Below the pieces are notes generated by a model. It was not told the origin of the DNA. It made no database searches and saw only the letters and a program-made list of their open reading frames with translations. From positions 2,815,060 to 2,835,059 of the forward strand of contig CP084167.1 of assembly GCA_021513715.1 (NCBI GenBank): DNA of 20,000 nt, given 5' to 3'. The number at the start of each line of letters is the position of its first letter. The first letter of the stretch is position 1. Positions 14,690 through 14,869 of the stretch are shown here, piece by piece. This DNA comes from Candidatus Heimdallarchaeum endolithica (lineage in GTDB: Archaea; Asgardarchaeota; Heimdallarchaeia; Heimdallarchaeales; Heimdallarchaeaceae). The translations under genes and the position numbers were made by a program.

Positions 14690-14869
14690 TCTAATGGCAA
14701 TTTCAGGTTCGGAATGAGTCTGAGTGTTGCCCTGCCGCTATGGCCGCGACGAATCGCAGCGAATGGCCGTTCCCAAGTGCTCTCGCAACTTAGTACAGGA
14801 CCACACGCTGGCAGGCTTAACTTTCCCGAGTTTCTGGAACACATCCAGATCCTTTCTGCTGCCATTAGA
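14690..14869 (-). rRNA. Circularly permuted 5S rRNA precursor (core 14702-14822; 3' half 14754-14822, UUCG linker 14750-14753, 5' half 14702-14749)
   Basis: The 3'-half signature AGTTAAGCCTGCCAGCGTGTGGTCCTGTACT...GCGAGAGC...TTGGGAACGGCCAT precedes the 5'-half signature GCGGCCATAGCGGCAGGGCAACACTCAGACTCATTCCGAACC. Helix I is GCTGCGA-TTCG-TCGCGGC. Helix II is GCGGCAGG/CCTGCC(A)GC. Helix IV is GTGGTC/GGCCAT. Helix V is CTAAG-TGC-GAGA-GCA-CTTGG. External stem TCTAATGGCAG/TTGCCATTAGA joins the new ends. Confidence 0.87.

What the first reader, a model, noticed from the sequence alone, without database searches (positions are those of the whole stretch)
14743..14760. Native 5S ends fused through a UUCG tetraloop capping helix I
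GCTGCGA-TTCG-TCGCGGC forms a 7-bp helix I closed by an exceptionally stable UUCG tetraloop, where 5S rRNA normally has its open 5' and 3' ends. This argues for a functional covalent closure. A random junction from a tandem array or a misassembly would not be expected to produce it.
Basis: partly seen in the sequence, partly recalled or inferred. Interest (0 to 1): 0.85.

Follow-up and report, generated by a model that had tools for sequence, protein, structure and literature searches.

The report
Circularly permuted 5S rRNA gene in Asgard archaea
The hairpin is real: it closes the normally open end of a 5S ribosomal RNA whose gene is rearranged (second half first) in Heimdall- and Jord/Freya-type Asgard archaea, which probably explains why no 5S gene could be found in their finished genomes.

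Summary
On the minus strand, 14760-14743 reads GCUGCGA-UUCG-UCGCGGC, a 7-bp stem with a 4-nt loop.

It sits inside a circularly permuted 5S rRNA gene (14869-14690). The order is: leader strand, 3' half of 5S, helix I closed by the tetraloop, 5' half of 5S, trailer strand.

The new ends lie in helix III, next to the AA bulge. A 10-13 bp leader-trailer helix clamps them.

I found 13 further copies: 10 Heimdallarchaeaceae-type loci (two are the copies in the closed Ca. Heimdallarchaeum aukensis genome) and 3 Freya/Jordarchaeales loci.

- All keep the same order and a 4-nt YNCG loop (UUCG, UGCG, UACG, CACG).
- The helix I stem is paired in every copy. Its closing pair varies: A-U, U-A or C-G.
- All ten pairs of the leader-trailer helix covary.

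Rfam's linear 5S model scores only 27-31 bits, below its 38-bit threshold. A permuted model scores 96-148 bits.

The authors of the closed Heimdallarchaeum genomes reported that no 5S gene could be predicted.

No bulge-helix-bulge splice motif is present. The most likely product is therefore a linear, permuted 155-184 nt 5S rRNA that keeps the tetraloop. This is inferred; no RNA data were available.

I found no report of this in the searchable literature. The closest precedents are permuted mitochondrial 5S in brown algae and engineered cp5S in E. coli.

The parts
14909..14916 (-). TATA-like box (UUUUUAAA) preceded by a purine-rich, BRE-like stretch. This is the inferred promoter of the permuted 5S gene.
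   Evidence: Read from the sequence. The same AAGAUUUUUAA / UUUAUAU element lies about 30-45 nt upstream of the leader helix in L001, L005, L009, L014, L029 and L030. The function is inferred, not tested.
14859..14869 (-). Leader strand (UCUAAUGGCAG) of the new terminal helix. It pairs with 14700-14690.
   Evidence: The 11-bp duplex appears in the MFE fold and in RNAduplex. The equivalent helix in homologues has unrelated sequence but is 98.8% paired, and 10/10 pairs change on both sides.
14822..14858 (-). Leader insert between the terminal helix and the 5S core. It contains a hairpin CUGGA-UGUGU-UCCAG (14848-14834). It ends in GGGAAA (14827-14822), which probably supplies the helix III AA bulge.
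   Evidence: The hairpin recurs in L001, L016 and L018, and as ACGGA-UGUU-UCCGU in L008. The insert is absent in L005, L014, L029 and L030. G(A/G)AA(A) directly 5' of GU(U/C)AAG is kept in all copies.
14761..14821 (-). 3' half of 5S rRNA. It comprises the helix III proximal strand (GU), the helix II 3' strand (14815-14807), loop A, and helices V/IV with loops E and D (GUACU...GAGA...UGGGAA).
   Evidence: This stretch aligns to Rfam RF00001 model positions about 50-113. The pairs covary.
14754..14760 (-). Helix I, 3' strand (GCUGCGA).
14750..14753 (-). UUCG tetraloop joining what are normally the 3' and 5' ends of 5S rRNA.
   Evidence: The loop is always 4 nt in homologues: UUCG, UGCG, UACG or CACG.
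14743..14749 (-). Helix I, 5' strand (UCGCGGC).
14701..14742 (-). 5' half of 5S rRNA. It comprises loop A (CCAUAG), the helix II 5' strand (GCGGCAGG), loop B, the helix III distal stem UCAG/CUGA and loop C (ACUCAUUCCGAAC). It ends in CUGAAA.
   Evidence: When searched alone, it aligns to Rfam RF00001 model positions 5-58. It is part of the R1 match 14701-14821 (146 bits).
14690..14700 (-). Trailer strand (UUGCCAUUAGA) of the terminal helix.
14673..14681 (-). T-run (UUUUCUUUU), the inferred archaeal transcription terminator.
   Evidence: Read from the sequence. T-runs lie 4-12 nt after the trailer strand in the homologues. The function is inferred.

Best explanation
The hairpin is helix I of a circularly permuted 5S rRNA. 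It is closed by a structural YNCG tetraloop where canonical 5S has its free 5' and 3' ends.

The gene (minus strand, 14869-14690, 180 nt) is a stand-alone unit with its own TATA-like box and T-run. It encodes, in order: a leader strand, a variable insert, the 3' half of 5S, helix I with the tetraloop, the 5' half of 5S, and a trailer strand.

The topological break lies in helix III, between the distal stem (UCAG/CUGA) and the AA bulge. There the leader and trailer pair into a new 10-13 bp terminal helix. That helix takes over the end-clamping role of helix I.

The most likely mature product is a linear, permuted 5S rRNA of about 155-184 nt. It would keep the tetraloop and carry the terminal helix as an extra arm on the beta domain. 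It is probably the only 5S of these organisms.

Shown: the gene order, conservation, covariation of all helices, the absence of a BHB motif, and the failure of standard 5S models.

Inferred: the transcription start and stop, retention of the loop and terminal helix in the mature RNA, incorporation into ribosomes, and an origin by tandem duplication followed by loss of the outer halves.
For: - Gene order. The full Rfam 5S model matches 14875-14751 at only 31 bits (threshold 38), with helix I and the 5' half mismatched. The downstream 14747-14694 aligns on its own to model positions 5-58.
- In-silico un-permuted sequences (117-118 nt) fold into the canonical three-arm 5S shape.
- Homologues with the same order: two copies in the closed Ca. 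Heimdallarchaeum aukensis genome; L001 and L005 next to GatE orthologues; six metagenome contigs; Freyarchaeota L014; Jordarchaeales L029 and L030.
- Structure. 96.9% of cells are paired, 13-16 pairs change on both sides, and 0/500 shuffles reach this. Slid controls give 24-49% paired.
- Helix I is 100% paired and its closing pair is AU/CG/UA.
- The terminal helix is 98.8% paired and 10/10 pairs covary.
- The permuted covariance model R1 scores 96-148 bits on all 13 loci. This includes L029 and L030, which were not used to build it.
- No Rfam family reaches its gathering score on any copy.
- Wu et al. 2022 state that 5S rRNA genes could not be predicted in the closed Heimdallarchaeum genomes (PMC8813620).
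- No conserved BHB motif joins leader and trailer.
- MFE folds of six full-length variants all contain the tetraloop hairpin and the terminal helix.
- Engineered E. coli 5S with its native ends joined by a 4-nt connector is functional (PMC7283268).
Against: - No RNA data. The mature ends and retention of the loop are inferred only.
- I could not scan whole genomes for a canonical 5S. The 'only 5S' claim rests on the published negative result and on Rfam misses in about 100 kb of fetched loci.
- A Ca. Jordarchaeum MAG was reported to contain a 5S gene (PMC9723677). The permuted form may therefore not be universal in that class, or the tool may have reported a partial hit.
- Alignment A2 was fitted to the model's structure, so its pair counts lean towards that structure. 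For A3 I chose the helix strands by eye.
- The break interrupts helix III near the AA bulge, a site which (from my own knowledge of Xenopus 5S-L5 studies) contacts uL18. Whether the extra arm fits there is untested.
Confidence: 0.72

Rival explanations
1. The gene is permuted, but the RNA is restored to a canonical 5S, as with permuted tRNA genes. The leader-trailer region would be cut and the ends ligated (EndA/RtcB or another ligase) to give a circle. The UUCG linker would then be excised to recreate the native 5' and 3' ends.
For: - Archaea circularise 16S and 23S precursors at BHB motifs, and circular and permuted 23S rRNAs are known (PMC12918454; PMC7758197).
- Permuted tRNA genes in Cyanidioschyzon use this route (cited in PMC4267664).
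- The leader-trailer helix brings the two ends together.
- A short duplicated (N)GAAA is present at both ends.
Against: - No conserved bulge-helix-bulge motif was found in either handedness at the junction in any of 11 copies. Only scattered hits at inconsistent positions turned up.
- The linker is always exactly 4 nt and of the YNCG type on a covarying stem. That is what selection for a stable cap gives, not a processing spacer.
- No nuclease is known that opens such a loop precisely.
Confidence: 0.12
2. The mature molecule is a covalently closed circular 5S, or a two-piece 5S. In the circular case the ends at the terminal helix would be ligated by an Rnl3/Pab1020-type ligase without reopening. 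In the two-piece case the loop would be cut but the halves stay base-paired.
For: - The terminal helix juxtaposes the 5' and 3' ends.
- Birkedal et al. (PMC7758197) cite Becker et al. 2017 for the Pab1020 RNA ligase, which was proposed to circularise many cellular RNAs.
- Circular 23S rRNA is found within ribosomes (PMC12918454).
Against: No sequence feature requires either outcome. Predicted transcripts carry unpaired 5' and 3' overhangs of variable length. A conserved tetraloop argues against a cut at helix I.
Confidence: 0.08
3. The locus is a non-functional relic: a decayed tandem 5S duplication, a pseudogene or an assembly artefact. The real 5S would lie elsewhere.
For: - Rfam can force a full-length linear alignment over 14875-14751 at 31 bits.
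- The leader of the window copy weakly resembles a 5' half (z = 2.15; 22/500 shuffles score as high). This fits an origin by tandem duplication.
Against: - The core is conserved across two Asgard classes, with compensatory changes in every helix.
- There are two copies in a closed genome, with intact promoter-like and terminator-like elements.
- The linear reading has no helix I and no loop C.
- The leader resemblance is not significant in the other lineages.
- No canonical 5S was predicted in the closed genomes.
Confidence: 0.03

Closest known systems
Canonical archaeal 5S rRNA (Rfam RF00001)
   Same: All conserved elements are present and covary. These are loop A (CCAUAGCGG), helix II, loop B, helix III with loop C (CAUUCCGAAC), the GUACU...UGGGAA loop E region, helices IV/V with a GAGA loop D, and a 7-8 bp helix I.
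   Different: The order is circularly permuted (3' half, then 5' half). Helix I is capped by a tetraloop instead of carrying the termini. The termini lie in helix III and are clamped by an extra 10-13 bp helix. The total length is 155-184 nt rather than about 120. The locus falls below the family's gathering score (27-31 vs 38 bits).
Permuted mitochondrial 5S rRNA of brown algae and other stramenopiles (Valach et al. 2014, PMC4267664; mtPerm-5S model)
   Same: It is a natural 5S in which the conventional open helix I is replaced by a closed hairpin. Both the gene and the final RNA are permuted. It was likewise missed by the standard model.
   Different: There the ends lie at the junction of the alpha and gamma domains, giving an open three-way junction. 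It is organellar. Here the three-way junction is intact, the ends are in the beta domain (helix III), a new terminal helix exists, and the hosts are free-living archaea. No mtPerm-5S match was reported by cmscan.
Engineered cp5S rRNA in E. coli (Huang et al. 2020, PMC7283268)
   Same: The native 5' and 3' ends are joined by a 4-nt connector or tetraloop, and new ends are opened elsewhere. Ribosomes containing it are active.
   Different: It is synthetic. The new ends are in loop C or loop D, and the RNA is inserted into 23S rRNA rather than being a free molecule with its own terminal helix.
Permuted tRNA genes (Cyanidioschyzon merolae) and circularly permuted 23S rRNA (Pyrococcus/Thermococcus; PMC7758197)
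   Same: These are non-coding RNA genes or RNAs whose 3' part precedes the 5' part. Leader-trailer pairing brings the ends together.
   Different: Those depend on BHB cleavage, ligation into a circle and reopening at a second site. Here no BHB motif is present, and the permutation is encoded directly in the DNA.

Membership tests
5S rRNA (RF00001) | Conserved beta domain: helix II, loop B, helix III and loop C with the CCGAAC motif | tested here: met
   14742-14701 aligns to model positions 5-58. The helix II and III pairs covary.
5S rRNA (RF00001) | Conserved gamma domain: helices IV/V with loop E (GUAC...GGGAA) and loop D | tested here: met
   14806-14761 aligns to model positions about 66-113. 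The helix V and IV pairs are 100% paired, and 6 pairs change on both sides.
5S rRNA (RF00001) | Helix I is formed by the free 5' and 3' termini, with the linear order 5' half then 3' half | tested here: not met
   Helix I is a closed hairpin and the 3' half precedes the 5' half. In the linear reading helix I is unpaired.
5S rRNA (RF00001) | Score at or above the curated gathering threshold (38 bits) | tested here: not met
   31 bits for the window and 27 bits for L001. No hit at gathering score in the window or in 9 homologous loci.
Permuted mitochondrial 5S (mtPerm-5S, stramenopiles) | Termini at the alpha/gamma junction, with helix I replaced by a 5' hairpin and an open three-way junction | tested here: not met
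   Both loop A strands are continuous here. The termini lie between the helix III distal stem and the AA bulge.
BHB-dependent permuted RNA genes (permuted tRNA type; archaeal rRNA circularisation) | A bulge-helix-bulge motif (3-nt bulge, 4 bp, 3-nt bulge) formed by leader and trailer at the sites to be joined | tested here: not met
   A scan of 11 copies in both handednesses found no motif at a conserved position near the junction. The leader-trailer helices are continuous duplexes.
UNCG / YNMG tetraloop hairpin | A 4-nt loop with sequence U/C-N-C/A-G on a Watson-Crick stem | tested here: met
   The loops are UUCG (window and most copies), UGCG (L001), UACG (L029, L030) and CACG (L014).
UNCG / YNMG tetraloop hairpin | A C-G closing pair, which gives the extra-stable C(UUCG)G context | tested here: not met
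   The window has A(UUCG)U. C-G closure occurs only in L016, L018, L014, L029 and L030.
Functional ribosomal 5S (incorporated in the large subunit) | Expressed, bound by uL18/uL5 and present in 50S particles | not testable with these tools
   No transcriptome or structural data were available. Support is indirect only: purifying selection and the absence of another predicted 5S.

The most novel reading that the evidence does not exclude
The permuted, tetraloop-capped molecule is the sole functional 5S rRNA of Heimdallarchaeaceae and of at least part of Jordarchaeia/Freyarchaeia.

It would have arisen once, because the break point next to the helix III AA bulge is identical in both classes. If so, it may be widespread in Asgard archaea, where it has been overlooked because standard models fail.

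The ribosomes of some of the closest known relatives of eukaryotes would then carry a 5S with a closed helix I and an extra arm on the central protuberance. The long-held rule that cytoplasmic 5S rRNA always has the canonical topology would be broken.
Probability: 0.6. Interest if true: 0.88.

Novelty: new variant of a known kind. Interest (0 to 1): 0.82.

Why it matters
5S rRNA is regarded as topologically invariant in all cytoplasmic ribosomes. The only natural permuted forms reported are mitochondrial.

A permuted 5S in Asgard archaea would matter in four ways:
- It would solve the 'missing 5S' in the closed Heimdallarchaeum genomes. It would also remove a systematic gap in MAG quality scoring, which requires a 5S gene.
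- It is a natural counterpart to the engineered cp5S. It shows that free termini at helix I are dispensable in evolution as well.
- It adds a new arm at the central protuberance in a lineage already known for supersized rRNA expansion segments.
- It gives a discrete, easily scored character (canonical vs permuted 5S) for Asgard phylogeny and for the question of which lineage is nearest to eukaryotes, whose 5S is canonical.

Tried and rejected
1. **Canonical linear 5S at 14875-14751 (Rfam, 31 bits).** Rejected. Helix I and loop C are missing in that reading, while a perfect 5' half lies downstream.

2. **BHB-mediated circularisation.** A scan found no conserved motif.

3. **The leader as a decayed 5' half of an upstream tandem copy.** Only the window copy gives weak similarity (z = 2.15); the other lineages give none. 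I keep this only as a speculative origin.

4. **Synteny hunts.**
   - GatE neighbours worked for L001 and L005 but not for L007.
   - L003 and L004 were too short.
   - TrpRS neighbours of the Freya copy (L021-L024) carry no 5S.

5. **Genome-collection scan.** My pattern required GTACT-N16-TGGGAA and CCAYAGCG. It returned only Ca. H. aukensis. It was too strict, because the Jordarchaeales copies have CGGGAA, so the taxonomic distribution is underestimated.

6. **Metagenome scan.** Five of the 11 hits were chance matches in coding DNA (L010, L011, L013, L017, L020). R1 rejected the four of these that were included in its search (L010, L011, L020 at E<=1; L013 and L017 were not searched).

7. 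**Chimeric query of spurious ORF translations across the gene.** This was productive and found the Jordarchaeales copies.

8. **Literature searches** for permuted 5S in Asgard archaea or archaea generally found nothing.

Full report
**Observation**

The finding lies on the minus strand. Read 5' to 3' there, 14760-14743 is GCUGCGA-UUCG-UCGCGGC. This is a 7-bp stem (one U-G wobble) with a 4-nt loop. The 18-mer folds at -9.6 kcal/mol, against -3.8 +/- 1.7 for dinucleotide shuffles; 0 of 200 shuffles fold as well. The coordinates are exact.

**What surrounds it**

On the RNA strand the hairpin is preceded by GUUAAGCCUGCCAGCG...GUACUAAGUUGCGAGAGCACUUGGGAACGGCCAUUC. This is the 3' half of a 5S rRNA: helix II 3' strand, loop A, and helices V/IV with loops E and D.

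It is followed by CCAUAGCGGCAGGGCAACACUCAGACUCAUUCCGAACCUGAAA. This is the 5' half: loop A, helix II 5' strand, loop B, helix III and loop C.

- Rfam's linear 5S model can only be forced over 14875-14751 at 31 bits (gathering score 38). In that reading helix I is unpaired and the 5' half is poorly matched.
- The downstream stretch 14747-14694, searched alone, aligns to model positions 5-58.
- Joining the two halves in silico in the canonical order gives a 117-nt RNA that folds into the textbook three-arm 5S shape. The same holds for three homologues.

The locus is therefore a circularly permuted 5S gene.

**The new ends**

The core (14821-14701) is flanked by UCUAAUGGCAG (14869-14859) and UUGCCAUUAGA (14700-14690). 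These pair over 11 bp.

The break falls in helix III, between the distal stem UCAG/CUGA and the AA bulge. A 37-nt insert (14858-14822) lies between the leader strand and the core. It contains a small hairpin (14848-14834).

A TATA-like box (14916-14909) lies upstream, and a T-run (14681-14673) lies just downstream. Together they suggest a stand-alone transcription unit. This is inferred from sequence only.

**Organism**

GatD/GatE and other genes mark the window as archaeal. GatE is 94% identical to a Candidatus Heimdallarchaeaceae protein. The window is nearly identical over this locus to Ca. Heimdallarchaeum aukensis PM71.

**Homologues**

All copies found have the same permuted order:
- Two copies in the closed genome of Ca. 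H. aukensis, with unrelated leader and trailer sequences.
- L001 and L005, next to GatE orthologues of 71% and 65% identity.
- Six metagenome contigs.
- L014, a GC-rich copy. Its neighbouring TrpRS is 100% identical to a Ca. Freyarchaeota MAG protein.
- L029 and L030 from Ca. Jordarchaeales MAGs. I found these by searching the translations of spurious ORFs that run through the gene.

**Is the closure conserved?**

The helix I hairpins are:

| Copy | Hairpin |
|---|---|
| window, L008, L009, L012, L015, L019 | GCUGCGA-UUCG-UCGCGGC |
| L001 | GCUGCGA-UGCG-UCGCGGC |
| L005 | GCUGCGU-UUCG-ACGCGGC |
| L016, L018 | GCUGCGC-UUCG-GCGCGGC |
| L014 | GCUGGUGC-CACG-GCGCCGGC |
| L029, L030 | GCUGGCGC-UACG-GCGCCGGC |

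- The loop is always four nucleotides and always Y-N-C-G.
- On a structure-guided alignment of 12 distinct sequences, helix I is paired in 100% of cells. Three of its seven pairs change on both sides. The closing pair is AU:6, CG:5, UA:1.
- For the whole permuted secondary structure, 96.9% of cells pair and 13-16 pairs show double changes. No shuffle out of 500 reaches these values. Sliding the partners by 1-3 columns drops pairing to 24-49%.
- Caveat: alignment A2 was fitted to the model's structure. The independent MAFFT alignment A1 gives the same picture.

**The terminal helix**

Its sequence differs completely between lineages. Examples are UCUAAUGGCAG/UUGCCAUUAGA, UGUCUCCUGC/GCAGGAGACA and CUGGGCACCGUGG/CCACGGUGCCCAG. 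Even so, 98.8% of cells pair and all ten pairs change on both sides. I chose the strands by eye, so some selection bias applies. Minimum-free-energy folds of six full-length variants (155-184 nt) all contain both the tetraloop hairpin and the terminal helix.

**Detection**

A covariance model of the permuted core (R1) scores 96-148 bits on all 13 loci. This includes about 102 bits on L029 and L030, which were not used to build it. It finds nothing in the unrelated loci.

Rfam finds no family at gathering score on any copy. [quoted passage not shown] The permuted gene is the obvious candidate for that missing 5S.

**How it most likely works**

Three routes are conceivable.
- (a) The transcript stays linear and permuted. 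The tetraloop is a permanent cap on helix I, and the terminal helix clamps the new ends.
- (b) As with permuted tRNA genes, the ends are ligated into a circle and the linker is removed to restore a canonical 5S.
- (c) The product is circular or in two pieces.

Route (b) needs a bulge-helix-bulge motif. A scan of 11 copies in both handednesses found none at a conserved position, and the leader-trailer helices are continuous duplexes. A linker held at exactly four nucleotides of a stable tetraloop class, on a covarying stem, is what selection for a structural cap would produce. It is not what a processing spacer looks like.

In the compact Jord/Freya and L005 forms, the TATA-like box sits about 30 nt before the leader strand and the T-run lies 4-12 nt after the trailer strand. 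The primary transcript is therefore essentially the helix-clamped molecule.

I favour (a) at about 0.7, (b) at about 0.1 and (c) below 0.1. All of this is inference; no RNA data could be consulted.

G(A/G)AA(A) immediately 5' of GU(U/C)AAG is invariant in the leader of every copy. The A-run after CUGA/ACGG in the trailer varies (A, AA, AAA, AU). The functional AA bulge of helix III is therefore probably supplied by the 5' segment.

**Origin**

Both ends retain a short duplicated (N)GAAA. The break point is identical in Heimdallarchaeaceae and in Jord/Freya archaea. This suggests a single event, probably a tandem duplication followed by loss of the outer halves. The resemblance of the window's leader to a 5' half is only marginal (z = 2.15) and is absent in other lineages, so this remains speculative.

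**Comparison with what is known**

- Permuted 5S rRNAs are known in brown-algal and other stramenopile mitochondria (PMC4267664). There the ends lie at the alpha/gamma junction, and the three-way junction is open.
[quoted passage not shown] The resulting ribosomes are active (PMC7283268). This shows that closure of helix I is compatible with function.
- Circularly permuted or circular 23S rRNAs exist in Thermococcales and other archaea, but they arise by BHB processing (PMC7758197, PMC12918454).
- Five literature searches found no report of a permuted 5S in Asgard archaea or in any cellular (non-organellar) genome.

I therefore rate this a new variant of a known kind.

**Limits**

- The taxonomic distribution is underestimated. 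My collection pattern was too strict, and both the genome and the metagenome scans are spent.
- A Ca. Jordarchaeum MAG was reported to contain a 5S gene (PMC9723677). Either canonical genes persist in part of that class, or a partial hit was counted.
- I could not search complete genomes for a second, canonical 5S.
- Steric compatibility of the extra arm with the 5S-binding proteins is untested.

Noticed in passing
window 14468-14558 (-); L009 6822-6896; L001 5782-5856: The tRNA-His(GUG) just downstream of the 5S gene carries an intron of about 16-19 nt and an encoded CCA in this window. The orthologous tRNA-His in Ca. H. aukensis and in L001 is 75 nt with no intron. This is an intron presence/absence difference between close relatives.
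   Followed up: partly
window 14834-14848 (-); L001, L016, L018, L008: The leader hairpin CUGGA-UGUGU-UCCAG recurs in several Heimdall-type copies. In the second H. aukensis copy it appears as ACGGA-UGUU-UCCGU, with two compensatory pairs and a different position relative to the terminal helix. It is absent from L005 and from the Jord/Freya copies. It could be a lineage-specific extra arm or a vestige of helix III/loop C.
   Followed up: partly
L008 6480-6660 (-) and L009 6500-6700 (+), both CP084166.1: The closed Ca. Heimdallarchaeum aukensis genome has two permuted 5S copies. Their cores are nearly identical, but the promoters, leaders and trailers are unrelated. One lies next to tRNA-His and the other next to tRNA-Ser.
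   Followed up: partly
window 14671-14928 (-); L029 1501-2613 (+): Spurious ORFs run through the permuted 5S gene. The window has an 85-aa ORF. In a Jordarchaeales MAG, the annotated 370-aa 'hypothetical protein QW526_02840' begins inside the 5S gene, so its start is probably mis-called. Translations of such ORFs proved a usable handle for finding more copies.
   Followed up: yes
literature: PMC9723677 (Ca. Jordarchaeum madagascariense MAG): That MAG is described as containing a 5S rRNA gene. Either some Jordarchaeia keep a canonical 5S, or the annotation tool reported a partial match to a permuted gene.
   Followed up: no
window 18275-19621 (+): A 448-aa ORF matches the Cas12f1-like TNB domain and OrfB_IS605 (a TnpB-type transposon-associated nuclease).
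   Followed up: no
L021/L022 about 2750-2900 (+): Upstream of TrpRS in Freya-related contigs there is a tRNA-like sequence with long inserted segments, possibly multiple introns, where L014 has the 5S gene. The 5S-TrpRS synteny is therefore not conserved.
   Followed up: no
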